The notes below the pieces were generated by a model. The model did not search any database. It saw nothing but the letters and a program-made list of their open reading frames with translations, and was not told the DNA's origin. Positions 1,217 through 57,800 of a DNA stretch of 64,000 bases are shown here, in pieces (position 1 is the stretch's first letter; every line of letters begins with the position of its first letter). The stretch lies in NCBI GenBank assembly GCA_043228905.1, contig JBHGNT010000010.1, positions 20,956,001-21,020,000 of the forward strand, in the 5' to 3' direction. Source of the DNA: Azolla caroliniana (Eukaryota > Plantae > Polypodiophyta). The position numbers and the translations under genes were made by a program.

Positions 1217-1421
1217 TCCTTCTCAAGATGCTCCGGTAATGGGCGAATTTCCTCTCCATAACCTCACCAGTGAAGATGACGCCCCGACAGAAAGATTTCC
1301 TTCAAGAATCACACAAAACACAGAGACCCTGCCCCGCTGCCCTGTTCCCCGTCCCAAACCCTAGTTTCATGTCTCTGACGCTAATCTCATAACCCTAAAT
1401 CTTAATCCTAATTTCATCATC

Positions 1422-3403
1422 ATGTTAGCCAAGCTATTCACCATGGCTCTGATGAAGCCATCATCAGATCGAGAAATGCCAGAAGGAGGAGGAAACCACA
1501 ACTTCAGAGGTAAGAAGCATCTCCTAAGCTTTACTCCATCTCTGCACGACTCATCTTCATCATCAGAAGAGAGATCTGCTATTGAAGATCTCTTGTTAAC
1601 AAGATTCTGCATCTGCTGTGTCATATTCGATTTCACAAACCCTAAAAAGAAAGTAGAAGAGAAACAGATCAAGAGAGAAGCTCTGCTAGAGCTTCTTGAT
1701 TACATGCCCTCTGTAGCAGGAAGCTTCACAGATACAGTAATGGAAGAATTCGTGAGTATGATAGAGTTAAATATTTTCAGATCTTTACCTCCACGCGATG
1801 AAGAAGGAACGCTATTAGCTATGGATCTCTCATGGTTTCATCTTCAGCTTGTGTATGATATTCTGGTCAGATTCATCGAATCAAAAGAACTCGATCCAAG
1901 GGTAGCTTCGAAATATATAAACCATAGCTTCCTTGAGAAACTTCTTGGTTTATTTAATTCCACCCCATACCCTCCAGAGAGAGAGATGCTAAAGACATTG
2001 TTACATCATACTTATCTTCGGCTTACGACTCATCGAGCTTTTATTAGAAAGGCGGTGAATGGGATTTTCCATCAGTTTTTAGTTGAACCCTTTCAACCCA
2101 ATGGTATAGCTGAGCTTCTTGAAGTATATGGAAGCATTATTAGTGGATTTTCGATACCTTTGAAAGATGAACATAAATTGTTCTTAGAAAGGTCTCTCAT
2201 GCCATTGCATAAGCCAGATTGCGTGTGGGTTTATCACAAACAGCTCTCGTTTTGTGTGGTCCAATTCGCAAGGAAAGATCCAAAGCTTGCCAGTAATTTG
2301 ATCAAAGGATTATTGAAGTATTGGCCAGTTACTAGTAGTCAAACGGAGATATTGTTCTTGCAAGAGCTTGAAGGCGTTTTGGAGGTTACAGAGGAAGCAG
2401 AGTTTCAACGATGTATGGTTCCTTTGTTTCGAAGAATCAGACATAGTCTAAGTAGTCCACATTCTCAGGTGAGGTGTCTTGCTCATTGCATTTTCTAATT
2501 GCAATGATCTTAAGTTGTATTAATTTACAATCTTAATTTGTATTAAGTTATGATTCATATCTTAATTGTATGAGAAATGCTGCAAATGTTTTAAGGATAT
2601 GAAAGTGGTTTCTCATTAAATGCTCCTAAGTGTTTTAATGACTCAATCATGACCACATTTAGAGAGGAACTTTAGATGGATGCATGGGAAGGTATGCCGA
2701 TGGGACAACTTTTGATGTCTGGAGGGAGTAGGATTATAGTTATCATATATTTTGTTATGAATGTTTGTCCATATTTCCCAACTTCAGACATACATGGGTG
2801 TGGATCAGGAATACATGCTAACAGTGGTGGTTGTCTTCCATACCAATTGGTCTATAAAACCCATAGATTATCAGAGCAAATAGGACTTTTTTGTAGGATG
2901 TAGCAGAACCGTAGCTATATTCCTAAGAGCATATAATCGAGTTGCAGATATTTGAAATCAAATTGATGTTTAATCATATTAATGTATGCTGTTGTGTTGA
3001 TTCAATCCATATCAGTTTAACATTGTTGTTGCTGTATTGCATTAGAGCTAAGGTGTTTTTATCATCGTCTCAGGTTGCTGTATCCACCATCTTTTTATGG
3101 AAAAATGATCACATAGTGGATCTGGTCGCTCAAAACCGACGAGTTATTTTACCATTGATCATTGGCGCCCTTGAAGAGAACCATTGGAATGTAGTTGTCA
3201 ATGGGTTCATATCAGACTTGAGAAAGCAGTTACTAGATTTAGACCATGAACTTTTTGAATCGTGCCAAAGGGAGTACCGAGAAGAGGGAATGAGAACAAA
3301 AGCGAGACAAGATCAAAGAGAAAAGACTTGGAAGCAACTGGAAGCACTTGCTATCACTAAGAGCCTGGGGATCTCAGGCTTGAATCAATGCCTTGAAGCA
3401 TAA
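1422..3403 (+). CDS. PP2A-B': Protein phosphatase 2A regulatory subunit B' (B56 family), divergent; 2 exons, 458 aa
   Basis: Exons 1422-2468 and 3074-3403 with a phase-0 GT-AG intron (SSPHSQ|VAVSTIFLWKNDHIV versus family SSHFQ|VAERALFLWNNDHI). B56 motifs present: CCVIFDFTNP, WFHLQLVY, NGIAELLE, GFSIPLKDEHKLFL, LLKYWP. Confidence 0.93.
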
Positions 3404-7248: not shown

Positions 7249-10200
7249 ATGTCGACCGAAGAAGGAGAGCTCTTACCAGAAGAGGAAGACACACCTCCTC
7301 AGCTTGCGACTCAATACCTGAATAATGGGAGAGATCCTTTCCTTGTCATCTGTCGATGCTTCAGTGTTGTCACTGCCATCAGCGCCATCCTCTGTGTTAT
7401 CGTCAATGTCTTCTCTTCCATACATTCCTTCACAAGCGGTGAGGACGTGAGTTCCTTCTCTCTTGAATTCTACACTTTTCTTCATTCTATACGCATTTTC
7501 CATATATCTCATTTGGGTGCGAGCATTTCCAATTGATCTAACTGCATTTTCTCTTCATTGTCTATTTTGAATGCGTGTCATGCAACTCTATTTTTGTTCA
7601 TCTTTCACGTTTTCTTTATGCATGTAGGCATCCTCAGTGCCTCTAACTCTGTTTCTCTTTGTTGCTCCTTTTTATCTATGTATATATGTGTGAATGCATG
7701 TGTGTGTACGAATGTATGTAGTTGATCTAATTCTGTATGTGTGGATTTACAAATTCGTCCTTCTTTCTATGTTTGTGTCTTCATGTATGTGTTTATTCTC
7801 ATTGCTTCCGCTTTTGGCGCATCAGATTTTTGGTGGCATCCTTAGGTGCTATGCTATAGTCTTCGCTTTTTTTGTTGCTATAGCAGAGACAGAATGGCAA
7901 TGGGTTTTCAAGTTCTGGAAGGTATTAGAAAACTCTTATCTTGTTTCTTCCAAATCATCACATGTAGTACTTTTTTGTGAAAACTACCAAAATGTGCTTA
8001 TGTCTATGAGAAAAAGAAAAGAAAAGTTATGCTTGCCAGTCTCCAAAAATCACCTATATTTGCTTCGTCAAAGGATGATGCGCAATCACATGAAAATTAA
8101 GATCCAACCATGTAATAAAAATTATAGATATTTAGAGGCATACACTTAGTCAACGTAATTATCATGATCAAGGATAATGTAGTAGCTTAATTTGCCTAGT
8201 AGTGCATTTAAAATATCCCCTAATTCATTGTCATTAACCAGCAAGTTGGGCTGCTAGAAGCAAAAGTAGAAAAATATTCTTTTAATCTTCTCAAAAAAAT
8301 GTGCTTATTTCTAATTAGAAACAAATTAGTGACATTAAGCTTCTACTTTGGGCAAGTTTCCTTTTTTTTATTAGAGAGAAACTAGTATTCAAATCTTATA
8401 ATCAGCTAAATGCAGTACCTAAGACTATTATTAATCCTTCTTCATAGTCTCATGTAATTTTTTTAAAGGTATACCTTTGTTATTAGGAGTGTAAATTTGA
8501 TTAAGACTAATTATGAAAAGCCAAGCATATTTATTAATTTATTCACACTTATAAGTATATTGTAAAAGTTTTCCATATCTCTTTTCTAGTTATGAAAGTT
8601 CAAATGATATGTCCTAAATTGCTTTAACTATTGTTACAGATTTTGGAGTACTGGGCTGGTCGAGGAATGTTGCAAGTGTTGTAAGAATCTCTCTTTTCTC
8701 TATACAATTGCTTCTGTATGTGTGTATTTATGAATCACAGAGAGAGAGAGGGAAGAGGGAAGAAAGATTTTATTATCGCCCATGAGGGGCCAAATTTGAC
8801 CTATTGGACCAAATACACATATTGTTTTGGAAGTGACTCCTTAAGATGGGGGAAAGAGTAGGAAGAAGTAGGACCAAATAAACGTATCATCTTGGAGATG
8901 AGTCATTCCTAAGATGGGTGGTTACTACTCTGTACTAAAAACTCTCTATATGAAAATAGTACAGGGACATGTGTGCTCATCTTTCTTGGTGGAGAGTTGA
9001 GTATGAAACTTAAATTATCATGCCTGTCTAACAAGTCATCATAATTCTTGGCACTCGCAAATGACCTTATATGCTGAGCATTGATTAAGTAAGCTATATT
9101 TATCCTCCATTAAGTTTTTGCTGCATACCTTGTATATCTTCATGCTCAGGTGATGATGCCATGATGCTGCCTCAAGATCTAACCTGCGTGAGTGAGTCTG
9201 AAGAAGTGTTAAGGCTCTCCGAGAGCCAAGGCTCATGGGAGCAGTAACATGTGGTTGGATACGTTCTGGAATGTTTACCTTGTTTTGGGGCCAACATTGA
9301 GGGTTACTATCTGCAATGATGTAATATTCCAGATTTGACATTTTAGCATCTTTCCACTTTATCATCAGTGCCTCTAGTAATCTATTTCAATGATCACATA
9401 CTTCCTAGAAATACCTAAGACCTCCAATAGATCTTTTACATCCCATGTTTTAAACTATTTTATAATGTCAAGCACCTAGCCAGATGACAGAATTTTGTTG
9501 TTATTAGTTTTTTGTACATTGCATTCTATATTCCAAGTTTGTCTTGGCAATCTGTGATCGGGCACATTCATGACTTTTGTTTGGATGGTCTTTGCATGGC
9601 TAGTTTATCTATGGGCCAGGCACTAAGTTCTGATAGCATGATCAGATAGCATGTTGAGGATTTATCCCTAATTTTCTACAGAAGAACAAAATTTTGGCTT
9701 TTCCATATTTCATTCAGTGCACTGAGTGAGATAGTGCCACTGTCACTTCCACTCAATAAAGCAATGTTTGGACCACTATAGCATTGAATAACATCAATCT
9801 CACTTCCCATCTTGAGTATCATTTTGTTTGCATTGATTCTCAAGCATATAATAACTATTCCAACTCACTTGACGTCTAGACTCATAGCATACTTTCCACC
9901 TATTTGTCAATGGGACAATACCAATATATTTGAAGCTTGCACCACTTGTATTTGGTTCTCCATTGTAAGCAAAAACGATGTAGTATTGTAGTTGTATTGC
10001 CTTTATTGCCATCATTTTTGTAATGCCTTTACGGGTGAATTCATGTCATCCATTCTTAATCAAAAATAAAAGCTGTAGGCTTCCTAAAGCGCCATGATCA
10101 TTATCTTGATGCATGTTGATCCATGATTTTTGAGATGGTTTACAAGCATGAAATGCATAGCTAATATGTATGAGGGTAGTGCTGACTGTACTTTGTATCC

Positions 10201-12613
10201 AAGGTTGGTTGATGCGGTGAAATGATGCTATGACAAAGTTTAACAAGTGGATGTGGGTGTCATCATGCGGATCGGAGTTGGTGAGCAATGGCCTTCATGA
10301 TCTTTTGACAGTATGGCCCATGGGGCTTATATCCTGGTACTCGCTGTCTTGGTTGTTGTCAGCATTCCTCCACTTGCTCTATGGTGACTCTTCGGCATGT
10401 TAGTGGAGGTACAGGGATATGGAAGAAATCAGTGATGTGGCCATAAATCTTCTGGCAATACCTTGTTCTATCGTCATTTTGGAGAGGTATACTATATGAA
10501 AAGGGTGGAAAGTTCTTGATGTCAAGGCCATTGTTGTTGAACCACTACATCACCTGTGAGTACTGTGATTCTTTTGCATGTTCTATAGCTGCCATTTACT
10601 TCGCCACGTCAAACACCTTATGTGTAATTCTTTCATGTAGTGTGGATGCTTTGCTATGTATTGTCTGTGACAATATCATGGCACGTTTTCACATGTACAT
10701 GGGGAAGTAAGGAGCCAATATGGCTGCACTGAATATGAGGGTAAGGATGTCCATGTTGTCAAAAAATATACTTTGGTACAGGATGGCTAGAACTACATTT
10801 GCTCGAGTGAGTCTATGAGTTATCATGGATGCATGGAAGGTCATGGTTTACTTTGAGATCTTTTTCATGGTAAAAGCCATGCAAGGCATTGAGATGATAT
10901 GAGAGTAAGGATGTCCATGTTGTCAAAAAATATACTTTTGTGCAGGATGGCTAGAGCTACATATGCTCGAGTGAGTCTATGAGTTAGCATGGATGCATGG
11001 AAGCTCATGGTTTACCGTGAGATCTTTTTCATGGCAAAAGCCATGCAAGGCATTGAGATGATGTAGAGTTGCATAAGACATAGACACCAAGAGCATGTCA
11101 TCAATGTAAAGAAGAATGTGGATGGGTGTACCCAACATGCCAATTCCCTCGCCACCTCTACGTGTGATGTAGTTCGCTACCTCATTGATGTACAATCCAA
11201 AGGTAGGGGAGAGTGGACATCCTTGCTTCACACCAATGGTAATGGTGATTACCTATGAGAGGCCCCTTGGACACCCAACTTGTCTCAACATTTGCTTATA
11301 TAATGCACATATAGCCTATATCATGTCTGAGGGAATTCTGAATGCAGAGAGTCTTTGTAGGAGATATTCTCTTTGTATATTACTAAAGGTCTGGTGGAAA
11401 TCTGTAAAGCATCCATACAATCACAACTTTTGCATATATGCTTGGTTCACCAAGCAATGTGATTTTAAGGATGTGCTCAGTGGTAAGGTTCTCCATAGTG
11501 ACGAGAATGTCATGCGTTTGGCCCATACATTCTGCAGTAGCATCTTTTCAAGTATTGTCGATAATGAGCTTTTCCAAACATGATTTATGCAACCCTAATA
11601 TGATATAGAAGAAAGAAATATTAACCTCTACTAGAGCTCCAAATTGTCATATGAGACACATTGCGATTGCAAATATGGATGACTCAGGTTATCCATACTG
11701 AAACGAAAATAAAAACGGTTTCTGAAATATCAATAATTATGATCTTAATCCTTGACAGTGCTTTTGAACCGGTAATTGTTCTGAATGAAAGTAAGCAAGA
11801 AATATTAACATCTACTAGAGGCCGGAATCATCCTTTGAGAAATTGTGATTACCAATATGGATGACTTCAGGTTATCCTTACTGAAACAAAAACAAAAGCT
11901 GAAGGTTTCCAAAATATCCACAATAATGATTTTAATGCTTGAAGTCGCTTTAGAATTGGTAATGATTCTTGAGATAGTTTTGCAAGCTCCAAGTATGTAG
12001 CATTGGAAACTGTCTTCTTGAATAGTATTTTTTTTCAGGTGCTTGTTCTTGCAAAGTTGTACAAGGAAATAATTATGTTTTGCACTTAATTTTGAAATGT
12101 GTTTTGTTGTGCATACATAGTGTGGCTGTGATGACAAGGGCACTTGCTGAGCAAGAGTCAGGTGGTGAGGCGATGGTTATAGTTCAACAAATATCCAGTT
12201 ACTTGTTATTGTCATGTGGAATTTTATATATAATCACTGTAAGTAGCTTGCTTGTTAATCTAATTGCAAGGTTGATACAAACTTGAAAGCCTGTCAATGA
12301 AAGCTCTGTATTTGTATTAGGGAATCTTATGCATTCGTCATTTAAAACAAGCTCGATTAAAGAGAGCACTAAATCGAGATCAAGCCGTGAAGGATCTTGA
12401 GGTAATTTCATCTGTTACAAATTCCCCAACTTTTTAAAGGTCAACCAACAAGAGTCATAAACATATCGGGCAATGCTTTAGCAGTGTGTCATGAAATTCA
12501 GGAATGATACATATTTTGGGTTGTGGATCATTTCAGTCTAATGGATTTTGATTGTTATGTACTTGCAGGAATTGGATAAACGGAGAAAGGAGTTGCAACG
12601 ATTGCTATCCTAA
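7249..12613 (+). CDS. COPI-associated / TVP15-like Golgi-vacuole membrane protein; 6 exons
   Basis: Exons 7249-7446, 7826-7921, 8640-8680, 12121-12238, 12321-12401, 12569-12613, all GT-AG and in frame. Protein: DPFLVICRCFS...RCYAIVFAFFVAIAETEW...ILEYWAGRGMLQVFVAVMTRA...RDQAVKDLEELDKRRKELQRLL*, matching the plant COPI_assoc family as I recall it. Confidence 0.88.
9780..11590 (-). mobile_element. Fragmented LINE (non-LTR retrotransposon) RT remnant in intron 3 of the TVP15-like gene
   Basis: Minus-strand KQGCPLSPTFGLYI and LLYIDDMLLVS (RT motifs QGxPLSP and YADD-like) at 10977-11231, and FKYIGI (FKYLG) at ~9920. Internal ~165-bp tandem duplication at 10737-11062. Confidence 0.8.
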
Positions 12614-14559: not shown

Positions 14560-15893
14560 ATGGAGGCCCCAGAGCTCGGCAACTTGACAGAAGAAGATGG
14601 TGTGCGAATGGCTTCTATGATCGATCAGATGCAAGTCCGAGACAGGTATTCTTCGTGTTCGCTCCCGCTTCTCTCTCATCCTTGTCTCCTTGTTTGATTC
14701 AGAATCTATGGTAGCTTTCGATTTCGGTTCAGAATTCTGTATCTATAATGTTTTGGATGCTTCACAAAGTAACCCTCTTTCGTATCCAGAATACGCATGT
14801 GCTTTGGAGAGGCATTCTTTTAAATTCTGGAAATTGAGGGGTACTCTGTTATGTAGCCAAGAAATGGGCTATTTTTTTGTTACAAATCTATATCAAATTT
14901 CTAGCACTGAAGAATTTTTTTCTCACCTAAGTTTAGTCTGTACTAGTTTCTATTATCTAGAAAAGACTGTACTCAGTAAGTTGCATTTCTTTCATCATGT
15001 TCGAGAAAGTGTTACGAAAGTCAGATATTTTCTTCAATGTAAAGACAAGAAGAGCATGCAGTTGTTATCAAGTCAGATGCTATGATGGGGAATTATTGTA
15101 AATTCCGAAAATGATGGGTATTCTGTTATATACCGAATAAAAATGGTATTTTGCTTAAAACAAATCCATGGTAACTTCAAATTTCTAGTCCTGAAGATTT
15201 TTTCTTTCTTTCTTAAGTTTAATAACTCCTATTATCTACGAAAATATGTACTAAGTAGCATTTCATGCATCATGGTGGAGACCATGTCAGGAAAGTCAAA
15301 AAATTTCTTCACTATCTAGCGATAAAGAGCGTATGCTTGTTATCACATCTTCATCAACTTTGGGGTAAATCACAGTTGACATACTTTTGTTTGCTGGTTC
15401 GATTGGTTTATGTGAAAAATTCTGGAAACACCCTGGTTTTGCCCACATGACCCTGAGTTTTGATATTTCTCCAAATGCCCTTGGTCGACATCCTGCAGAG
15501 ACAGTATTCTTTACTTTGGGCTTATGATGCTAGTGGCCATATCACTTTGAGTCTGCATCTGCTTTTACACTTGAATTGAATTCCTTTAATTTTGGGATTT
15601 GATATTTAGCTTAGCCTTATGATGGCGTCAATTTGATTGTTCTCATTTGAGGATTGAATTCTTAACTTGACTTTATGATGGCATTAGGCATACATACAGT
15701 GCATAGGGATTGGTTATGGTTCCAAGGATAGCAAACATTTGCTAAAAATGAGGGCTGCTGCTTAAACTAATGCTCAAGTCAAAATATTTGGGAAATCATG
15801 ATAGCATATGGTGTTCCAATCAATGCCTGGAATTTTTGGTGCTAAAATCATTCTTAATCGAACTGGAATATCTTAATCATTTTTATGTGTGTT

Positions 15894-16241: not shown

Positions 16242-17599
16242 TTGAAAGAGTTACCAGTTTCCAATCTTGATGTTGAACTTTTGGTAAGAACTTATATAGT
16301 TTTGTAGCAAATTTTTTCTCGGATTTTGCTTCATAAAAGTGTGGGGGAAACACATGAAACCTTATGTAACCTCATGTGTTATCTCTCATGTGTACTACCT
16401 ATACATGCTGAGGAGAAACATTAATATAAAAATTCATGTGAAACCAGCTGATACAATTTTAGAGAGAGAATGACCAGATGGATGCAGCTCATGTGATAAA
16501 TTGGTGCTTGTGTCGGTCTGGAACTCTCTGTTTCTTTTATTTTCCTTTGCTATGTGGCTGCATGTTCAACAAATCTTGTTTTTATCAAACTAACTTTAGC
16601 CATTATTTTATGGTTGTTTTATGTTATGCATCATTTTTTGAATCTGTACATTCTTATGTCAAGTTTTCCTCATTTGTATTTTTTCCTGTTGAGCTTGGTG
16701 GGAAAGTTGGCATTCAGTGCTACTCATTGTATCATCATGTAATGATACTACTATTATGGTTCAGGTAGAGTAAATTGGGCTGAACATTAGTACATGGAAA
16801 TAAGCATGATACTTGGGATATGTGGCTGTTCTACTAGTGCCATCTACATACACTGGGTAGATTGTTAAGGTTTTACAATTGTGTACATATCTATAAAGAT
16901 TCTTGACCATTGTTTGTATTTTTAGTAATCATTTTTCTCTGTTCATTAAGGAAAATGTGAGTAAATTACAGTTGCAAATTATTTTATTCCAATAGCTCCT
17001 TTTATCACATATCTTGGTTATGGAAATGTCATTATGTTGATGGTTCGAGCCAAATTTGTTGTATTATATACACACAATTCATTATTTATCTTGAAGAACA
17101 TGATGAATCAATGTGATCTCTATAATATGCATTAATCTCTTTGCTCTTGCAATGGTGGCTTGTTGTGGTTTGTCATATGGTTAATGCTACCCAACGTTGT
17201 AGGGTGTCAGTGAGGTGAACGTGTTACCATGTGAAACGACTATATATGATTAGAGTGCCTATGAGCAAGGGCTAATGGGTGGACTTATGCTTGAATGCAT
17301 ATGGTTACAATCTTCTTCTCCCTTGTGTGTTTCTTAGCATTATAAAATTGTCTAATCTTTCCACCTCCACTCTTGCATGGCGGTGGCTCGCATTTGACTT
17401 AATGTCACTTTATTACATATTTCTTTGGAATGTTTATAGAGGAGAACATATCCTACATTTGACATTGGCACTTGATGTAGGGTGTGTCGATGTGTAACAC
17501 TACTTTATGGTTCTCTCAATGTTTGGCAACTCTATTTTGGGAATGAAAATGCATTTACAATGTCAAATGCATATAAGGTTCAAGATAAACACGAGAATC

Positions 17600-17830
17600 T
17601 CAAATCCATCTTGAATCAACAATTCCCCCATATACATCAGATTGTGGTGACAATTTGAGAGGAAAAGGAAAACTAAAAGCAAAATCTAGACGAAAGGGAT
17701 CTTTTAAGGATAAACAGGAGAAGGTCAAATCCATCTTGAATCTACTGTTCTACCATATGCATCAGACTCTAATGACAATTTGAGAGGAAAAGGAAAACTA
17801 AAATCAAAGTCTGGACAAAAGCAATCTTTT
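17600..17830. repeat. ~125-bp imperfect tandem duplication
   Basis: tcaaatccatcttgaatc...gacaatttgagaggaaaaggaaaactaaaa occurs at ~17600 and ~17725. Confidence 0.85.
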
Positions 17831-18155
17831 CAGGCTGAAAATAAGAAAAGAAAAAATGTGTGTATATATATATATGGAAACGTGCTAACAATGTAATGGA
17901 AGGAGAGCCATTGATTTCACCATACCATACTATATGCCATTACCAATACCATACCATATATCGTTACCAATACCCTACCATATTCCGTTACCAATACCAT
18001 ACCGAATAGGCTGGTTTTCTGGGATTACTAATAGTGTTATTGATTTAGAAAAAATGAGTTGTGATATTATGTAGCATGCTTTGTATGGCATGAATTCAGG
18101 TGATACAACCTTGGATTTGCTTGACAATGGATGAGCCCCCTTCGTATCGTTCATG

Positions 18156-18250
18156 CCATACCACATGATGTCGTGCCATACCATACCATACCATACCATA
18201 CCATACCATACCATACCATACCACACCATGCCATGCCATACCATACCATC
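18156..18250. repeat. (CCATA)n pentanucleotide microsatellite upstream of ALB3
   Basis: ccataccataccata... read directly. A second, degenerate CCATA/CCAATA block lies at ~17918-18005. Confidence 0.95.
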
Positions 18251-18312
18251 CTTATCATCCATCCCATCCATCCATTCATTCCTTCTTCTTCTTCTCCTTC
18301 CTTATCGTTGCC

Positions 18313-21300
18313 ATGGCTTCTTGCCCACTGTCCACGCGGCTTTTGTCCGCAGCGACAGTCAGCAAGATTAGCCATGGCTTCTTCCACAGATCAAGAAGCC
18401 TTCATCGTCATCATCATTCTTCTTATTCTGCAGGCAATGGTGTTCTCGCCATTCGTTCATCGTTTCAGGATTTCGATTCTACTTCACTAGAACTCGTCTC
18501 CAAAGGAATCCCCGAGCTCCTGATGAGAGCTGAAGGTCTTCTTTACACCATAGCGGATTCTGCTGTTTCTTCCGATCCTGTTGTGGCTAATACTCAACAG
18601 AATCGTGACTGGTTGAGTGGTCTTACTGATGGTTTGGAATCCATTCTCAAGGTAGGATACTTGTTCTTCGTCACGTTTAATCATTGAATCCTTGCTCAAT
18701 ATATAGCTCTTTCATGTTGGAGGTTTCATTATTAATTAATCTTTCTCAATGTAATGCGTTTTCATGTTTGAGGGTCTTGATCTCTGAAATAAAAATGTAG
18801 ATTTTGATGTTAATTGAGGATTTTGGTCTTCTAGCAGTACAAAAATGGCTGATTTAGATGGTGGACATGTTAGATGTTTCAATAGTCTTCTTTAAAAGAC
18901 TAAATTTGAAATTATGGATAGTCCCAAATCCTATGGAATTGAAATATTATTTTCTAAAAATAGCATGATCTAATCATATTTTTCCAAGTACAATGGGGAT
19001 ACTGAAAACACGACGAAAAATAATTTAGAATTAATGTCTAATGATTTAGAGAGTACTGATTTCAATGATGTCTTGGGATACAACTGATGTTGAGGGTAGT
19101 TCTAGAATATAGCTATTGATTTTGATGATGGTTCGAACATACAAGTGTTGCCTTTTTATGGTTTGAACATACAGCCATAGATTTTGATGGCTTCAAGATG
19201 AAGTTGCTTGGGAAACTACTATAATACAAAGTATAGATTTGGATGGTTTGAAAGTGAGGCTTCAGTTGTCTTTCTTATTGTTGGAGAGTGGTTTGTCTTG
19301 TTGTGAACAGCTATATATTTTGATGGTTTTAGCATACAATGATAGATTTTGACGTGTGCAACTTTGGAGGTTAGACCATATTCCTGTGCAAAAATCATTG
19401 ATTTGAATGTATTGAACATGAAGTTTTCAATTGTTTTTCTGAGACCAAAAATATGGGTTTGAGGTGTCTTACAACAACTATGATTCTTTCTGTTGGTTTG
19501 AACTATAGAGTTTAATATTTTGGAATCCATCAGGGAACTATCATTCACTATTTTTGTTTCAGCCGTTTCAATGCTTTAGGAAAGTATCATTCTCTTTTGC
19601 GTTTCATTCTTTTTCGTGTGTACCATATTGTTCAAAACATGCGATGAGCTCTCTGTTGGTTTGTACCATAGAGTTTAATATTTTGGAATCCATCAGGGAA
19701 TTGTCATTCACTATTTTTGTTTCAGCCTTTTCAATGCATTAGGAAAGTATCATTCTCTTTTCTGTTTCATTCTTTATCTTGTGTACCATTATGTTCATTA
19801 CGTACAATGGAGGTCTCTTGCCATTGAGGCAATAGGAACAAGGAAAACATCTATAAGGAAATCTTTTAAGAACTTTGATTTGTTCATATCTGCAATAAGA
19901 AGTGCATCGTGCAATCAGTTTCTGGGAAATATCAATACCGTATTGGGTTCTTTTGGATGTTTCAGGTTTTGAAGGACGGATTTCAAACCCTACATGTTCC
20001 TTATGCTTATGGCTTTGCAATAATTTTTCTGACAATTCTTGTGAAAGCTGCAACTTTTCCCTTAACAAAACAACAAGTATGCATTATCTCCTTTCTCCCT
20101 TCTTTTGTTTGCCTCATTTGCAATCTCGAAAATATCAATTGACTGTGCTTCTTGGGTACAGCTGGAATCTAGCTTAGCAATGCAGAGTCTGGCACCAAAA
20201 ATTAAAGCAATTCAGCAGCGCTATGCTGGCAATCAGGTGTGATATAATATATTTTGGATTTTCCCAATGTGAATAATTGATTTTGGGGAAGGAGTAAGGT
20301 CTGAAGGAATGCTTTTGGGAGAGATTTTTAAGGAAAGACAGTAATATTTTTAGGTTAAACGACTTGTTTGAATTGACTTGGCAAGATAATCCTTCTTCCA
20401 TACTTTCATCCACATGAATACTTTTATATTGATGATCAGAATGCTTTATTTTCACTAGGATAGATAATAGTGTTTTAGTTCCATGATGAGTAAAAATGAA
20501 CATTGCTTAGGGAGGACAATAGTTTTGTTTGTTATGCTTATATGTGCACAAATGGTACATTGCGGTGGACGCTAGTTCATTTATGATTATGCATGTACAT
20601 ATTGAATAGTAAATCATCTGCATGATAAGGGAGAAAAAGAGATGATGGATCTAATATCATAATAGTAGGAAGGATCAATATAAGGGCGATTTAAGGGCTA
20701 ACCAGGAGAGTGTATTTCATGACCCTAGTTATCATTGTGAGGGAATACTGTTTTTTGGTTGCATATTAAATTTCAAAAGTTAACACTACAGAAGATGTTA
20801 TTTTAGGAGAGAATACAACTTGAAACATCACGACTTTACAAACAAGCGGGTGTTAATCCACTGGCAGGTAAATGTTTGTCTCTATAATTGTTTTGCCTTT
20901 TTATCTTTTTTCTAAGTTCGCTTCATGTATTTGTAGGTTGTTTACCCACCTTGGCAACCATCCCTGTATTTATTGGACTTTATCGTGCCTTATCAAATGT
21001 TGCAAATGAGGTCGGATGACTTTATTTTTCTGTAGTCGTGTGTTAAAAGAAATATATTGACCTTTACATCACGCTTTATAGCTATAAAGCTTCACAGAAT
21101 CAGGTTTGATTAAATGTGAATGAGTCCTGTTTAACCAGGGGTTGCTGACGGAAGGTTTCTTTTGGATCCCATCCCTAGCTGGACCTACAACTATTGCAGC
21201 TCGCCAAACAGGAAGTGGAGTTTCATGGCTCTTCCCGTTCGTTGTAAGTCATATATTTATCGACATCATTAATACGTTATAACTTGTATTATTATTGAGA

Positions 21301-46569: not shown

Positions 46570-47766
46570 AAACACAATTATATTAATAAATATATGTGAA
46601 AACACTAGAATGGTATCACAACTGAGTGGTGTCACCACAACACATCCACCGGAAAAGAACTTTGACTTGCTCCAATAAACAAATTTGTCACAGTAGTACT
46701 CCTACGATCATAGACATGCATGAACTCCGTGCATACTATGAAATACAAAAATGTTGTGCATATTTCAAGTCGACTTGTGTGAATTGTGCAAACACTCCAA
46801 TTCTTGGTGTCATATAGTAATGTGATCAAATTTGTCGAATCTGACAAGCACTCAATCATTGAATGAAATGACTAGTATTATCTTCCACTTGAATAATGTA
46901 AAAGAAGCAACTGATTATTGCTATAATTGGCCCAAAAGGCAAACTCCCAATCAAATATACTCTCCAAATGAAGACTTTTGCTAGAAGTTGCAATTTATAA
47001 TGCCAACTATGTTTTGAGATTTTCCATCATCCATAATCAAAGTTATGTCATTGAATAAATTCAATGTAGCTGTCCTCATTACTTCATATAGGTAAGAACC
47101 TTGCATCAATATTATATTCTCTTTCTAATTAGCTTACCTTAGTGGTAACTTGTTACTCTTCTAATACTACGTCTTGAGTTCGGAACCCAAATTTCTCACC
47201 TCTCTATTACTCCAAAGATATCTCTTAATTTACTAGATGCCACCATGGCATGTAAGGGTTGAACTCATCACCTTTTTTGGATTTCACAATTCCTGTTATT
47301 AGTGAATTATAAAGTATAGTTGTATATAATATGGAATAATAAAAGTTAACATGATATATTATAAGACCATTATATATACCTTTTATTGTGGAGATTGCAC
47401 ATTTTAACACACTTCTTTACGGAGAATGTGTCTGTGTTGCTTGTCCATCGACGATGACCATGTAACACCTTTTTGGATTTTACAATTCTTGTTATTAGTG
47501 AAAACAGAAGTCAAGAATATGCATGCTCATGGATTATCAAAACAAGCTTGAAACAATATGGATGGGTGTTTGACATTATGAAATTATTTAAAAATCAGGG
47601 AATGAAATGTCTTTTGGATCTTTAAGGTGAGATGAAGTACATCATCACCAAGGATAGATTACTAGTTGAGGCAAGCTCTTAGGTGATGTTATGAAGTATA
47701 AGATCACCAAGAATAGATTAGTAGTCGAGGCACTAAGGATGTGGCAATACACTAAACCGCCCCCAT

Positions 47767-50262
47767 TGTCACATTCTAGACTCGAACCTTTGACTTTTAT
47801 CACACATAGTACATTGTGTTGTGTTAACCATATGAAAACTCTTGTGAATTGTCCACATTTGATTGTGAACTTGTATATATTGTAGAGTCTAGTGTATAGT
47901 ACATTCGAGAATATTCTAGTCGTTAGTATATTCTAGAATTATTCTGTGGTATATTCTAAACGGGTATATTCTCGAGATATTTCTCGACTATATTCTAAAG
48001 ATATTCAATCTCAGAAATTGTATAAATACTTGTAACATCCTTGGTCCATTTCAAGGGATTCAACACCAGTCATTGACACATCAATCTAGTATTCTCCTTT
48101 TGCCTCATCTTTGTCTCCTTGATCATTATTTCTATCTTCATGCCCTCATGTCGATCATAACATCTAGAGTTCCTAGCCTCGTCACATCTAGCACCAAGTT
48201 CATCCGTCGCTCGTAGCCCCATCATCTGTGCTCCGTCCTAGTCTGCGCTTTGTGTGTTCGTGACAGTTTGAATCCCTTCCAATTGGGAGCACCACCCGTC
48301 TTCGTCATCGCCTTTGCTTCTAAAGTTACCATCATCACCGTCCTTGCTTCTGGAGTTACCATCATCAACATCCTTGTCTTCAACATCATCATTTTCGGAA
48401 CCTCTTCGCCCAACCATTGTCATCATCATTTTTAGGTATCATTTTGCATCACGATTTTGGTGAGGAGTGCTTTCGATTGCTCACCTTCCCAGTTCCGGTG
48501 GGGGTCACAACCGCTCACGTTCCTGGTGAGGATTGGATCACTGCTCGCTTGCACTGCATTTTCGTTATAGTTCAAGTCTCGCACCACTTTCTGTTGGTGA
48601 GGACCAATTTCGATCGCTCACCTTCTAGTTTCAGTGGCGGTCACAACTGCTCACTTTCCTGGTGGGGATCCCGTTGGTTTCTCGTTGGCGCTACCATTTG
48701 TGACATGTGTTGGGTCAACCTCGACTATTTACCCTCTCATAATAGAAGAAGTCGAGTCGACTGCTTCATTGGCACTCCTTCACCTGTTGTTGTTCTAGTT
48801 CTCAGTGAGGGCCACATGGTCGCTCATGTCCATTTGTGTTCTAGTTCTCTGTGAAGGCCGCATGGTCGCTCACGCCCGTTCGTGTTTTTGATGAGGACCG
48901 CACATGGTTGCTCACGTTCCAATTCTTGATGAGGGCCACACATGGTCGCTCACATCCGTTCGTGTTCGAGTTCTTCGTGAGGGCCACATGGTCGCTCACG
49001 TCCATTCGTGTTCAAGTTCTTCGTGAGGGCCACATGGTTGCTCACGCTCATTCGTGTTCATTTCTCGGTGAGGGCCGTATGGTCGCTCACATCCGTTCGT
49101 GTTCGAGTTCTCAATGAGGGACGCATGGTCGCTCACGCCCGTTGGTGTTCATGTTCCAATTCTTGGCGAGGACCGACATGGTCTCTCATGCCCGTTGGTG
49201 TTCGTGTTCCAGTCTCCTGTGAGGACCGCACATGGTTGCTCACTCCAACTATTGTTTGTGTTCCACATTCTGGTGAGGACAGACATGGTCGCTCATGCAT
49301 GTTGTTGTTCATGTTCCAGTTCCCGATGAGGACCACACATGGTTGCTCATGCTTGTTGGTGGTTGTGTTCCCAACCCTCGACGAGGACTGACATGGTCTC
49401 TCATGCTCGTTCGTGTTCTTGTTCCCCATGAGGACCACACATGGTCACTCACGCCCGTTGGTATTCGTGTTCCAGTTCCGGACGAGGACCACGCATGGTC
49501 GCTCATGCCCGTTGGTGTTCGTGCTCCCCGTGAGGACCACACATGGTCACGCATGCCCATTGGTATTCGTGTTCCAGTTCTGGGCGAGGATTGCACATGG
49601 TCGCTCATGCTTGTTGGTGTTCAATACCTCGTCTTTTGGAAGGGTTCTAGAAGGGTTACTCCTTGTCTAGGATTTAAAAAATACTTTGGAGGTGGTCTAA
49701 GATTTTCATCAACAGTATCCCCTTAAGCCAAGGACCGGTTTGGGAAGGCAGAGTAAGAGGGGGGATAATGTCACATTCTAGACTCGAACCTCTGACTTTT
49801 AACACACACGTACATTGTGTTGTGTTAACCACATGGAAACTCTTGTGAACTGTCCACATTCGATTGTGAACTTGTATATATTGTAGAGTCTAGTGTATAG
49901 TACATTCGAGAATATTCTAGTCGTTAGTATATTCTAGAATTATTTTGTGGTATATTCTAAACGGGTATATTCTCGAGATATTTCTCGACTATATTCTAGA
50001 GATATTCAATCTCGAAAATTGTATACTTGTAACATCCTTGGTCCATTTCAAGGGATTCAACACAAGTCATTGACACATCAATCTAGTATTCTCCTTTTGC
50101 CTCATCTTTGTCTCCTTGATCGTTATTTCTATCTTCATGCCTTCATGTCGCTCACAACATCTAGAGTTCCTAGCCTCGTCACATCTAGCTCCAAGTTCAT
50201 TCGTCGCTCGTAGCCCCATCATTTGTGCTCCGTCCTAGTTCGCGCTTGGTGTGTTCGTGACA
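47767..50262 (+). mobile_element. Structurally complete non-autonomous LTR retrotransposon (TRIM/LARD-like, chromovirus-derived)
   Basis: 5' LTR 47767-48265 and 3' LTR 49769-50262 (TGTCAC...GTGACA, ~95% identical by eye); TSD CCCAT at 47762-47766 and 50263-50267; PPT aagaggggggataa at 49755-49768. No gag/pol ORF, but a chromodomain remnant QYLVFWKG (49622-49645) and DFHQQYPLKP lie just before the PPT. Confidence 0.95.
48800..49622. repeat. Tandem array of ~17 units (38-54 bp) inside the LTR element
   Basis: Consensus approximately gtgagg(g/a)ccacatggtcgctcacgcccgttcgtgttc...gttc; the catgg core recurs about 17 times. Confidence 0.92.
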
Positions 50263-50267
50263 CCCAT

Positions 50268-50600
50268 AAGGAGCCTTATTACTTCTTTGAACTCTACTCA
50301 CACAAGTTAGGTGTTGAGATCGTAGCATCATGGCATACATTACTCAGCCAAGTACAAAGACATGCAATGTGCGTAGTGAAAACCTAGTGGAAGATGAATA
50401 TCATTGGCTTCATGATGCATGCTCAACACGTAAGGCGATTGACAAGAAGTATGGTGAGATCGTAGCATCATGGCATACATTACTCAGCCAAGTACAAAGA
50501 CATGCAATGTGCGCAATGAAAACCTAGTGGAAGATGAATATCACTGACTTCACGATGCATGCTCGACATGTAAGGCGATTGACAAGAAGTATGGTGTATG
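50268..50600 (+). mobile_element. LINE ORF2 C-terminal (CCHC-type) remnant with a ~140-bp tandem duplication; probable target of the LTR insertion
   Basis: HKLGVEI...W...KTCNVRSENLVEDEYHWLHDAC resembles the LINE C-terminal motif SHxLxIExGRW...CxxC...EDExH...C. The block tgagatcgtagcatc...aagaagtatggtg is duplicated. Confidence 0.6.
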
Positions 50601-50674: not shown

Positions 50675-50747
50675 ATGGATGTAGCTCAATTAGTAAGGTT
50701 GCCCAATGGAAATTAGGTGGTCATGGGTTCAACCCCTACATTCCACA
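50675..50747 (+). mobile_element. tRNA-derived SINE or tRNA pseudogene
   Basis: Box A-like tagctcaattag and box B-like gggttcaacccc at tRNA-like spacing. The stems are degenerate, so this is not a functional tRNA. Confidence 0.45.
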
Positions 50748-51341
50748 GTGGCATCTAGTGAAATAACGAACCCAAGATGTAGTGTTACTAGTGTAAACGA
50801 CTTACCACTAGGGTAAAAGGTAATTACGATAATAAGAGAGCGAGAGAGAGAGAGAGATGTTACCCCACCTCCTCCTTTGGAAGGAATTACGTACAAGAAG
50901 ATGATATGCTATGTTGATGATTTGTGTCCCACACGTCAAATTTCGCCTCCCTCGTGGACAACAGAAAAAAACTAGTCTATATTCTATAATACTATACATA
51001 CTCTCTTTTTCTCTTTTCACTTTCTCTAGGGTTTATTTTAGGGTTTCTCGTCAACTCTGCATGTCTCGTTAAAGCCCCCCCCCCCTCAAGCCTCATTAAT
51101 ACGCGTGCTCTCCTCTTTCCATATCTGGCTCAGGTTTCTTCTTTCCTTTTATAGCCGTTCCCTCCACTCACGAGCGCGGGGGGAAGAAACGAAAGAGAGT
51201 TTTCCTCCTCGATTTCGTTTTGTTTCTTTTCTTTGATTTTTGATCTGCTTCTCAGGCATATGAAGTTCTCTTAGGCTATACATTCGAACGTTTTCTTCCG
51301 TACTAGTTGCAGAAGAAGGAATTCAGCAAAGAAAGAATTCC

Positions 51342-51789
51342 ATGGCTCGTGCAGGCGGAGTAATTAATTATCCTGTTTTTCTGGAGATGGATCAATCCTG
51401 GAGCAGGAAATATGGTCTAATTAGCACTATTCTGCATGGATCTTGGTGGGAAACCGATTCAAGGACATGGCAAGAAAGCGTATTCTACACGCTATGTGGA
51501 GCTTATTCTTTGCTTGCTGCAGTTACACTGGTAATATGCCTCTCTCTCTATATATATATGTCATATTTTTTTGTTCCATTCAGTATTCGCGATGAATGTA
51601 TGTTAATTTTTACGTATACATATAGATATGGATGCATATAATAGCATAATGGCATACTCATAATACTTCATATATGGAGTATATGGTTGTATTGCATGTC
51701 AATCATTTTGATATGCCTCTCTTTCCATAAGTATTGTATGTTAGTTTGGTTCCATCTGATGAATGTAGACGGAACATAGTTGTATATTG

Positions 51790-54800: not shown

Positions 54801-57800
54801 GTGGAATCATATCCTTGATCTAATGGGACGTGAGCCCATGCATTTTAGTTCTTTATGCATAGAGACTTTCATGAATTGTCACAACCTAATTATGTTCTGT
54901 GTGTCAGAATAAATGTGGTGTTTCGTGAAGAAGGTGATATGATTAACAAAGGTGTAGTGTGATAGCGTATGTCCCTCCACCATAGGGCATGCCCTTATAT
55001 AATTCCCCCATGCATAAGTGCTGCTGGGCATGTCCACCCCCTTGCCTACTCAAAATTAATGTTGTGTGTCCATTCTCACACCCAAGGACATGTTAAGTGT
55101 GGTTCCATAATGCTTTTGATCATGACATTAATGATGTGTTGTAAACATATGAACTCTTGTTTCTTTGGTATTAAAACAAGAATTCATGTACTCATCAAAA
55201 CATGATGAAAGAGGGGAGATAATTGTGAGCAATTTCTAAATTCTAGGATATTGTAGTAGGCTTGTATATATATATATTTGCTGAGGTTAATAAGGTCTCT
55301 AATCTTTCTAGTTTTGTGATTGCATAGTAGCAACGGGCTTATTAAGAAAATATGTCATGTATTTGCCGTAGATAAATAGAAGCCTTCATTTGATGTGAAT
55401 ATACACATCCCCACTATAACAACCAAAGTTGGAGCTTTGTTAGAAAGAGTTCTTCCATATAAGCTACCTTATTTTTTTCCTAGCAGAGTGCTGGATTTAG
55501 AACCCAAGGAGAGGTTTTTCCAGGTATTCACAAGGCGGATGCTCCAGCGCCCTTCGATGATGCATTGCATCAGGCATGAAACTGTAACTTGAAGGTTACA
55601 AATCCCTTGTAGAAGTTACCATTGAACTGTCAGTTTTCAAATGAATTGTTTACAGGCTTCTGTTATACATAAACTACTTTTTTTGCAATATGTTTGGAAG
55701 TTTGATTGTTCTTTAATACTGCTTTTAATGGAGATTCAGAACTAACAACGGATACAGTGCGTTCATGTTGCTGTATTATAATTGCAAGATTGAGCAACTT
55801 GCAGTTGTCTCTAGATAATAAATAATGGACGGTCTTCCTTGGAATGAATAGGCTATATACAGCTTTTAACGGAGATTCAGACCTAACAGTGGATACAGCT
55901 AGTTCATGTTGCTGTATTATAATTGCAACGTTGAGAAACTTGCAGTTGTCTAGATAATAGATAATGAAAGGTCTCCATAGAATGAATAGGCTATATAATA
56001 GTAACAATCGGCAACGGTACCGCGAAACTGTGGTTTAAACGGTTAAACGGTTTTAAAATTTAAAAAAAAAAGTAAAAATTGTTTTTAAACAATCTTTTCA
56101 TTTTCTTGCCTTATTCTCATATTTTAGGAAAATCTTTAAAATTTTAAAAATTTAAATAATGAAAATTTTAAAATTTTAAAAATTGACCTAAGCTGAAACC
56201 GAAACCGAACCACGAAACCGCAGTTTTACCAGTTTAATGGCTCAACGGTTTGAATTTTTTTAATGGTTCGGTGTAACGGTTTCATGGTTCGGTTTAGGTT
56301 TCAATAATTTTGAACAGTTTGGTTTGGACCCTCTTGAACCAAACCGTTGCCGATTGTCATATAATAGCATGGCCACAATCATGTTTGGTGCATTTATATT
56401 CACTGTTTAGCAATATTATTATAAATCCTAGCTATGGGTTGAAATTCTAGCATCAAAGCTATTATATATATATATTTTTAATCTTAAGATCACATGTACT
56501 CGTTACACTCATAACAGGCACGGAGCATGCCTACAGAAAATCTTCGCCCTTTATTTCTTGGAATAAATGGTGCGATTTATGTCATACAGGTACAGATGTA
56601 ATGTTCATGACAAGTAGGAACTCCTATACATGTATCTGAAATGCCATGATCTAATTGAGGATCTTTTGTCTGTTAGATCATAATTTGGGTCTGGGAATGC
56701 GTAAGTTATAATGCAGTTACTCAAGTTGCAACAAAAACATTTTTTGCAGGTAAGCACTTATCAGATGTACTTAAATTGTTTCCAAATAAATAGATTCCAA
56801 GATTGGAGATTGACATTTGTATTGTTTTGACATGTGCATATATTGCTAGAATAGGAACATGCATGTTCTGAACGTAGTGATGTGTTGGCCTGAACCTCAT
56901 AGGTGTATTAAGACTGAGTATTTTACAACATGGATTTAGTTTTTTGCCTCTTATTCCTCAAAGAAAATAACTCCTTTACAGAAGCTGTTTTGTCAAAACC
57001 ATTAGTTATCCAAAGCTTTTTTAGTTCACCCATATTTGTTCTTAATAATTCTCCTTCCTAAAGCATCTTTTCTACTATACATTGATGTCTGCAGTTGTAT
57101 CATGTTTTGCTGCTATAGGCTTTGCTATATATGGAGGGAGGTATGTTGACATCTAAATAAGAATCAGAGTTTTCTATGCTTTTGAATCAAACTGTTTCAA
57201 CAATAATTTGGCCAGGTTATTTTTTATGCTAAGACGATTCCCATTAGAGTCGATAGGGCGTCAAAAGAAGCTTAGAGAGGTGCACCTTTGAAACCTGAGT
57301 ATTATAACGTAAGGTATTGCTATTATAACATTTTCATTGTTTTAGTTTTGGCTAATGTGCATGGGTTTATGAGCAGGTTGGATTTATAACGACTGTGTGC
57401 TTTACTTGTTTTATCATCCGAACGGTTGTGGTAAGATTCTTTCATTCTTTCCATTGAATGTGAGTTCCATGGAAAGAGCAAAAGAGCTTTCAGTATCAGA
57501 GTAATATTTGTATTGTGTTATTATTTGTTTATTGAGATACTCATATGTTAACCTGGCAAATGAAGTTGTTTTTTGTTAACCTGGCATATGAAGATGTCCA
57601 CATTGTCTTTCATTGGTTCTAGTCTATTTTTTATATTTTAATCTATTCATTTAGAATCCGTTGCTCCCATCAATCCATTAGGTTCTCATCCCCATTATTC
57701 GAGGTGTAGTATTGCAAGGAAGTTTTAAATTTAAGGGTGTCAAAATTTACGACTTCTGATCGAAGTTCTTATGAATCTACGAAGTTCCTTTTCTGATGTT

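What the first reader, a model, noticed from the sequence alone, without database searches (positions are those of the whole stretch)
47767..48278. Self-priming (tRNA-independent) primer-binding site in a non-autonomous plant LTR element
Seen: after the 5' LTR end (GTGACA, 48265) and a 2-nt spacer comes TTGAATCCCTT (48268-48278), which lacks the TGG start of a tRNA PBS. Its exact reverse complement AAGGGATTCAA lies inside the LTR at 48053-48063, 32 nt after TATAAATA (48021), i.e. at the predicted transcription start, and is unchanged in the 3' LTR (50050-50060). Known: fission-yeast Tf1 primes reverse transcription by annealing the first 11 nt of its RNA to the PBS, with RNase H cleavage releasing the primer; self-priming has been proposed for Tf1/sushi- and Tcn1-type chromoviruses. 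Inference: this is a protein-less 2.5-kb parasite of a self-priming chromovirus (chromodomain remnant QYLVFWKG and FHQQYP.KP at its 3' end). Its intact TSD and PPT imply it was mobilised in trans, or lost its coding region after insertion.
Basis: partly seen in the sequence, partly recalled or inferred. Interest (0 to 1): 0.85.

Follow-up and report, generated by a model that had tools for sequence, protein, structure and literature searches.

The report
Self-priming Tcn1-type mini-retrotransposon in a fern
A 2.5-kb gene-less jumping element, in what is probably a fern, has a primer site that pairs with a stretch of its own terminal repeat, and distant relatives keep that pairing with different letters, so it likely starts copying itself without a host tRNA, a trick shown for yeast Tf1 and already predicted for moss and clubmoss Tcn1 elements.

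Summary
The 2,496-bp LTR element (47767-50262, TSD CCCAT) has an 11-nt PBS that is the exact reverse complement of 48053-48063, 32 nt after the TATA box (2 of 20,000 shuffles). The chromodomain remnant is real. It leads to full Pol proteins that end in the same PPT/LTR-start tail, and their RT core is 122/160 identical to Selaginella SM-Tcn1 (counted by eye). Covariation is the strongest evidence: SM-Tcn1 and locus L007 have the same TGACA-GT-TTG junction and TATA spacing, but primers differing at 4 and 7 of 11 positions, each matched by its own PBS. The non-coding interior is shared by many copies, so the family likely spread in trans. The transcription start and the priming itself are untested. 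The mechanism is known: REXdb predicts self-priming for 83% of 1,500 plant Tcn1 elements, and this scan noted similar elements on other DNA. The one new point is the host. A one-gene tree places it among ferns, where a 2010 PCR survey found no Tcn1.

The parts
47762..47766 (+). 5' target-site duplication CCCAT
47767..48265 (+). 5' LTR, 499 bp, TGTCA...TGACA
48021..48028 (+). TATA box (predicted promoter core); start of a module shared by LTRs with at least three different U3 regions
   Evidence: loose ends and depth peak; L005
48053..48063 (+). predicted self-primer, AAGGGATTCAA: first 11 nt of the RNA if transcription starts at A48053
   Evidence: TSS inferred, not mapped
48064..48080 (+). 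bulged C, then the R-side arm of the flanking duplex
   Evidence: 24 of 2,000 shuffles as good
48253..48267 (+). U5 end plus GT spacer, the partner arm of the flanking duplex
48268..48278 (+). primer-binding site TTGAATCCCTT, no TGG start
48279..48790 (+). non-coding leader/interior; no match to Pol proteins
   Evidence: gag was not properly tested
48791..49622 (+). degenerate tandem array of 46-54-nt units (16 cores counted)
   Evidence: also in L001 and partly in L005
49619..49645 (+). chromodomain remnant, first piece (VQYLVFWKG)
   Evidence: tblastn of P0126/P0127, 7 of 9 identical
49671..49772 (+). chromodomain remnant, second piece in another frame with one stop, running through the PPT into the LTR
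   Evidence: tblastn of P0125, 20 of 34 identical
49755..49765 (+). polypurine tract, 3 nt before the 3' LTR
49769..50262 (+). 3' LTR, 494 bp; primer copy at 50050-50060; 4-nt deletion in its TATA box
50263..50267 (+). 3' target-site duplication CCCAT

Best explanation
This is one copy of a multi-copy, non-coding LTR retrotransposon carrying a chromodomain remnant, likely derived from a Tcn1-type chromovirus, whose PBS pairs with its own LTR and which likely primes reverse transcription with the 5' end of its own RNA, using proteins likely borrowed from a coding relative. Shown: LTRs, TSD, PPT, the 11-nt complementarity, the same geometry with different letters in two distant relatives, the remnant's homology to intact Pol proteins, and many related copies. 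Inferred: transcription starts at A48053; the first 11 nt anneal to the PBS, helped by the flanking R/U5 stem; the helper's RNase H cuts after nt 11, at the bulged C; the helper's RT extends that primer into minus-strand strong-stop DNA; the PPT primes the plus strand; and the helper's integrase inserts the copy with a 5-bp TSD.
For: (1) The match is beyond chance (2 of 20,000), and predicted pairing probability is 0.95-1.00 for 9 of 11 pairs. (2) Covariation. SM-Tcn1 (supplement of PMC2864245, read by eye) has TGACA-GT-TTGATTCAGATTGTG, complementary over 15 nt to CACAATCTGAATCAA in its LTR, followed by the same CACCAGTC; 4 of the last 11 primer positions differ from ours and all are compensated. 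L007 has TGACA-GT-TTGTCGAGACTG, complementary over 12 nt to CAGTCTCGACAA; 7 of 11 differ and all are compensated; 2 of 20,000 shuffles. (3) The primer's 3' end lies 42 nt from the first TATA base in the window and in L007, and 42-44 nt in SM-Tcn1 (by eye). (4) In four sequencing runs, none of the 40 listed variant rows (38 places; 73 rows in all) falls in the 22 primer/PBS positions: P = 0.016, or 0.044 without CpG sites. (5) Of 7 listed variants in the flanking duplex, 5 keep or improve a pair, 1 is neutral and 1 breaks a pair. (6) The remnant finds 4 proteins among 1.84 billion, 3 of 4 with Pfam Chromo above cut-off. These lead to 5 of 114 candidates, of which 4 are long Pol proteins with RT and 3 of those reach the chromodomain; P0125 and P0126 end in the same PPT/LTR-start tail. 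(7) Tcn1 is 83% self-priming, 100% 5-bp TSD, 100% chromodomain in REXdb.
Against: No TSS, RNA or cDNA data bear on it. No RT tree with named references was built; the Tcn1 call rests on a by-eye identity and shared LTR anatomy. The third duplex of the Tf1 'pretzel' is not supported: the best candidate is 7 bp (102-398 of 2,000 shuffles as good), and the family majority letter at 48287 breaks one of its pairs. L007 lacks the long flanking stem (1,925 of 2,000 shuffles as good). Among the 4 metagenome LTRs covering the primer, only L001 is intact; L003 and L006 have one change each and L004 a 9-nt deletion, and none has a PBS attached. 33 variant rows were not shown. No compensatory change was seen within the family itself.
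Confidence: 0.88

Rival explanations
1. The PBS binds a host tRNA half or another small RNA, and the match to the LTR is a by-product.
For: Half-tRNA primers exist in plant copia lineages Osser, Bryco, Gymco-II and Bianca. The host tRNA set could not be searched (no genome).
Against: Three families have three different PBS sequences, each matching its own LTR at the same distance from TATA; a fixed tRNA would not track this. Half-tRNA priming was found only in copia elements.
Confidence: 0.03
2. The pairing is a structural stem (packaging, dimerisation or translation control) of an RNA that starts elsewhere, and priming works by another route.
For: The TSS is unmapped, the fold is equally stable from any start between 48045 and 48053, and the full three-duplex structure is not shown. 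Novikova et al. 2010 reported no evidence of either priming mode in SM-Tcn1.
Against: The paired segment sits exactly at the PBS position and there is no other primer site. Its 3' end is fixed relative to TATA in three families. The SM-Tcn1 sequence in that paper's own supplement has a 15-nt match.
Confidence: 0.06
3. The element is self-priming by ancestry only: a full-length chromovirus copy that lost its genes after insertion and never moved in this form.
For: No complete second copy with both LTRs was recovered (0 of 5 family loci), and the tool warns that contig depth is not a copy number.
Against: L001 is a separate copy with a 96% identical LTR, the same array and the same chromodomain deletion. 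8,000-10,000 contigs per run lie along the element at 80-99% identity, across the non-coding interior (3 of 4 runs; 2,875 in the fourth).
Confidence: 0.03

Closest known systems
Plant Tcn1 chromoviruses (SM-Tcn1 of Selaginella moellendorffii; REXdb lineage chromovirus|Tcn1)
   Same: TGTCA...TGACA LTR ends, GT spacer, TTGA-starting PBS, TCAA-CACCAGTC after the primer, 5-bp TSD, chromodomain just before the PPT; RT core of the coding relative P0125 is 122/160 identical to SM-Tcn1 (by eye); self-priming predicted for 83% of 1,500 elements.
   Different: 2.5 kb and non-coding against 5.5-9.4 kb; interior replaced by a tandem array; different primer letters; host probably a fern, whereas Tcn1 was reported only from mosses and clubmosses.
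Tf1/Tf2 of Schizosaccharomyces pombe and the Tf1/sushi group (Tj1, Tosmo, Tcry1)
   Same: An 11-nt match between the predicted RNA 5' end and the PBS, with a flanking duplex.
   Different: In Tf1 the TSS, RNase H cut and priming are shown by experiment, here none is. Only two of the three 'pretzel' duplexes have support here. Tf1 is autonomous.
TAR lineage of Ty1/copia (Houba, Osr-1)
   Same: Plant LTR elements predicted to self-prime (89% of 203), 5-bp TSD.
   Different: No chromodomain is listed for copia lineages; here the remnant and its relatives are gypsy-order Pol with a C-terminal chromodomain.
Non-autonomous plant LTR elements (TRIMs and larger derivatives)
   Same: LTRs, PBS and PPT kept, coding capacity lost, many copies.
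   Different: TRIMs are under 1 kb with tRNA-type PBS. In 115 sugar-beet non-autonomous families six PBS motifs were found, described as tRNA-derived, and 'self-priming' does not occur in that paper's main text.

Membership tests
Tf1/sushi-type self-priming | PBS complementary to an LTR segment rather than a tRNA 3' end | tested here: met
   11 of 11, 2 of 20,000 shuffles
Tf1/sushi-type self-priming | Primer and PBS covary among relatives | tested here: met
   4 of 11 compensated in SM-Tcn1 (by eye); 7 of 11 in L007; no compensatory pair seen inside the family
Tf1/sushi-type self-priming | The primer is the very 5' end of the transcript | not testable with these tools
   Only contigs were available, no raw RNA reads; position 32 nt after TATA is compatible
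Tf1/sushi-type self-priming | Three-duplex 'pretzel' around the PBS | tested here: inconclusive
   Central duplex yes; R/U5 duplex 24 of 2,000 shuffles; leader duplex not above chance
Tf1/sushi-type self-priming | RNase H cut after the primer and primer on strong-stop cDNA | not testable with these tools
   needs bench work
chromovirus|Tcn1 | C-terminal chromodomain with aromatic cage | tested here: met
   Remnant homologous to Pfam Chromo proteins; relatives P0125/P0126 show the three aromatic sites by inspection; the cage is in 95% of Tcn1 but also 54% of Galadriel and 59% of Chlamyvir
chromovirus|Tcn1 | RT/RH/INT phylogeny groups with Tcn1 | tested here: inconclusive
   No tree with named references. 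RT core 76% identical to SM-Tcn1 by eye and 79% to L007; no Galadriel/Galahad RT was compared. Atlas neighbours of P0125 are mostly Basidiomycota/Chordata clusters, taxa from few members
chromovirus|Tcn1 | 5-bp TSD and TG...CA LTRs | tested here: met
TAR (Ty1/copia) | Copia-type coding remnant, no chromodomain | tested here: not met
   The only remnant found is a gypsy chromodomain tail
TRIM | Under 1 kb, terminal repeats of 100-250 bp, tRNA-type PBS | tested here: not met
   2,496 bp, 499-bp LTRs, no tRNA-type PBS
Non-autonomous LTR family | Multiple copies share the defective interior | tested here: met
   L001; contigs across the interior in 4 of 4 runs; no second complete copy recovered

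The most novel reading that the evidence does not exclude
Ferns carry an abundant, recently active Tcn1 lineage that has not been described, with coding and non-coding families that swap U3 regions around one conserved TATA-primer module. Tcn1 would then span mosses, lycophytes and ferns with the same self-priming junction, which changes the published case for patchy fungus-to-plant transfer and gives a plant system with hundreds of copies in which self-priming can be tested directly.
Probability: 0.5. Interest if true: 0.5.

Novelty: new member of a known kind. Interest (0 to 1): 0.36.

Why it matters
In the papers I read, self-priming in plants is a prediction from sequence. This family adds compensatory-change evidence across three distant elements, including SM-Tcn1, whose describers reported no priming signal. 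It also suggests Tcn1 is present in ferns, where a PCR survey of 26 ferns and horsetails found none; that bears on whether Tcn1 reached plants by repeated transfer from fungi or was inherited and lost in seed plants. The mechanism itself is not new.

Tried and rejected
No whole genome is held, so copy number, intact copies and the host tRNA set could not be searched; the metagenome loci have no genome handle. The search for sequencing runs gave no RNA holder listed; all runs laid were contigs. A 20-base LTR pattern gave 0 hits in viral contigs and 6 in metagenome contigs, 1 of them (L002) a chance match. An 18-base junction pattern gave 1 hit in viral contigs (L008), a chance match inside a long open frame of a virus record, with no LTR similarity, no complement upstream beyond 6 nt and no Pol. 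The word-based homolog search with the chromodomain piece found 0 of 6 candidates; Pfam on the window's remnant pieces gave no Chromo hit; the full HMMER search succeeded. P0123 and P0125 found no relatives in viral contigs. Rfam found 0 matches over 47600-50400 and ARAGORN 0 tRNA genes in the window. Global folding of 48053-48300 is no more stable than shuffles (z = -1.06), so only the local duplexes are cited. The gag query from L007 was cut in the wrong frame, so a gag remnant was not properly tested. The AU test against bryophytes did not finish. The two chromodomain pieces were analysed only separately. The scan's notes hold nothing for this genome or for look-alike DNA. Lin and Levin 1998 was not held. 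TAR/copia origin and TRIM status were rejected (see membership test).

Full report
Observation. The element runs 47767-50262 (2,496 bp) between CCCAT target-site copies, with LTRs of 499 and 494 bp that match at 472 of 499 aligned columns (K2P 0.046). After the LTR end TGACA and a GT spacer comes TTGAATCCCTT (48268-48278), the exact reverse complement of 48053-48063, which starts 32 nt after TATAAATA. Only 2 of 20,000 dinucleotide shuffles of the LTR gave such a match. The copy in the 3' LTR is not independent evidence. The 3' LTR has lost 4 nt of its TATA box, which other copies keep.

The structure is larger than 11 bp. Folding from the predicted start gives the 11-bp duplex, a bulged C48064, two pairs with the GT spacer, and a 12-position stem between 48069-80 and the U5 end. 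That flanking duplex beats all but 24 of 2,000 shuffles. A third duplex, which the Tf1 'pretzel' needs according to passages of the S. osmophilus preprint, is not supported: the best candidate is 7 bp, matched by 102-398 of 2,000 shuffles.

It is a family, and it probably spread without genes. Laying public contigs on 47500-50500 placed 10,050, 9,286, 8,019 and 2,875 contigs from four runs of three coded organisms. Depth across the non-coding interior was hundreds of times that of the unique flank piece in X1, X2 and X5, and tens of times or more in X10 (the tool warns this is not a copy number). A 20-base LTR pattern gave 6 metagenome loci, 5 of them family members. L001 has a 96% identical LTR, the same 46-54-nt array and the same deletion in the chromodomain, so the defect predates amplification. 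None of the 5 holds a 5' LTR with its PBS. Of the 4 that cover the primer, 1 is intact, 2 have one change and 1 has a 9-nt deletion; those three are only 72-83% identical to the window's LTR. In one search, depth peaks over 48035-48095 at up to about ten times the rest of the LTR, and loose ends show at least three U3 types joined to the same TATA-R module. None of the 40 listed variant rows (38 places, of 73 rows) lies in the 22 primer/PBS positions (P = 0.016; 0.044 without CpG sites). This test is weak: 33 rows were hidden, and two majority variants near the stretch's end seen were not listed.

The coding relative. An unchanged 36-residue piece of L001's remnant found 4 proteins among 1.84 billion; 3 of 4 carry Pfam Chromo above cut-off, and P0123 ends in the same PPT/LTR-start reading as the element. 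From P0123, 5 of 114 candidates passed, 4 of them long Pol proteins with RT, RNase H and integrase, 3 of these reaching the chromodomain. Their tails align with the element through the PPT into the LTR (20 of 34 for P0125, 25 of 42 for P0126). Loose ends in the same runs read as the P0125-type LTR start and as a HRYPHKP tail, so coding relatives occur in the same DNA. Which one is the helper is not shown. The RT core of P0125 (residues 264-423) differs from SM-Tcn1 at 38 of 160 positions, counted by eye against the supplement of PMC2864245, and is 79% identical to L007. No tree with named references and no Galadriel comparison was made.

Covariation. SM-Tcn1's LTR ends TGACA, followed by GT and TTGATTCAGATTGTG, the complement of CACAATCTGAATCAA in its LTR, which is followed by the same CACCAGTC as here (by eye). 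Four of the last 11 primer letters differ from ours and each is matched in the PBS. The paper's text says no evidence of self-priming was found for SM-Tcn1. L007, the 1 confirmed locus of 22 pattern matches in genome contigs, is a related element whose own host is unknown. It has TGACA-GT-TTGTCGAGACTG pairing over 12 nt with its own LTR, 7 of 11 letters different from ours, 2 of 20,000 shuffles, with the primer end 42 nt from TATA as here. It shares no detectable DNA similarity with the element and lacks the long flanking stem. Three different primers, each matched by its own PBS at the same place, argue against chance and against a tRNA primer.

Mechanism. Tf1 anneals its first 11 bases to the PBS and RNase H cuts between bases 11 and 12 (passage of PMC7175516). 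By analogy, transcription here would start at A48053, the cut would fall at the bulged C, and a coding relative would supply Gag, RT/RNase H and integrase. Start site, cut and priming are all inferred.

Host. The window's single-exon aspartyl protease (31450-33009) was placed in a quick tree with 26 of its 120 listed homologs (48 rows plus one more in the first tree; rows chosen by me to cover lineages). It falls in a 10-row clade with support 99 whose four named members are all ferns: Psilotum, Pteridium and two Ceratopteris rows. Grouping with three lycophyte rows is rejected (p-AU 0.0006). This is one gene of a paralog-rich family, with no hornwort or Isoetes row.

What is known. Neumann et al. 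[quoted passage not shown] Their per-element table and FASTA were too large to read and may hold similar PBS sequences. Novikova et al. 2010 (PMC2864245; section 7, passages, one supplement) found no Tcn1 clones in 26 ferns and horsetails. Passages only were read of PMC3350952, PMC4600332, PMC13570524, PMC6934838, PMC8282616 and PMC13469084. Searches for Tcn1 with 'fern genome' (1 paper, the 2010 one), 'Azolla' (0), 'Ceratopteris' (0) and 'fern' plus 'LTR retrotransposon' (9, seen as listings or passages) showed no report of Tcn1 in ferns. In one search, 0 of the 30 listed (of 295) mention Tcn1. The library is partial and supplements are not searched, so automated annotations of fern genomes may already list Tcn1. 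A search for non-autonomous self-priming elements listed 5 papers; I read passages of one, which describes no such plant family, and saw the other four only as listings. The scan's own notes describe the same signature in at least 8 findings on other DNA; I did not test them.

Verdict. A real, well-supported, non-autonomous member of a known self-priming kind. The modest added value is the cross-family covariation and the probable fern host.

Noticed in passing
window 48061 (loose ends in runs X1, X5, X10, X11): Some contigs join the R region from 48061 to a different upstream sequence ending in TTCAAGGTGAA, in three of the four runs preceded by its own inverted copy. This may be a sister family with a different primer; its PBS was not seen.
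   Followed up: no
L007 1-3847: A gypsy LTR element with self-priming junction, gag-like and pol frames sits in a cyanobacterial metagenome-assembled genome; probably a eukaryotic contig binned there.
   Followed up: partly
SM-Tcn1, supplement of PMC2864245, positions 392-406 and 499-513: A 15-nt primer/PBS complementarity that the paper's text says was not found.
   Followed up: partly
L005 1-2000, minus strand: Next to a short family member with another U3 lies a different retroelement: a 478-aa open frame with a zinc-knuckle-like motif and a divergent RT fragment (35-39% to P0125/P0126).
   Followed up: no
L001 1-660: The family copy is cut on its 5' side by unrelated sequence that looks like another LTR with a tRNA-type PBS on the minus strand.
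   Followed up: no
window 47225-47272 and 50719-50766; 50312-50596: A 48-nt, 83% inverted repeat brackets the insertion and a 140-bp tandem duplication lies just downstream; the flanks are themselves repeated at low level, so the element may sit inside an older repeat.
   Followed up: no
window 10733-11069, 11609-11969, 14800-15345, 17584-17847, 19486-19818, 55716-55997: Many 130-280-bp local tandem duplications across the window.
   Followed up: no
window 1365-2498, 31450-33009, 51264-51641: Host genes: PP2A B56 subunit, aspartyl protease, and a TOM1/THH1-like first exon about 1 kb downstream of the element (the TOM1 hit is below Pfam's cut-off).
   Followed up: partly
window 27466-28002 and 18169-18687: Frames that look like a PhzF-family exon and an ALB3-like exon; labels recalled from memory (the second had no Pfam hit, the first was not scanned).
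   Followed up: no
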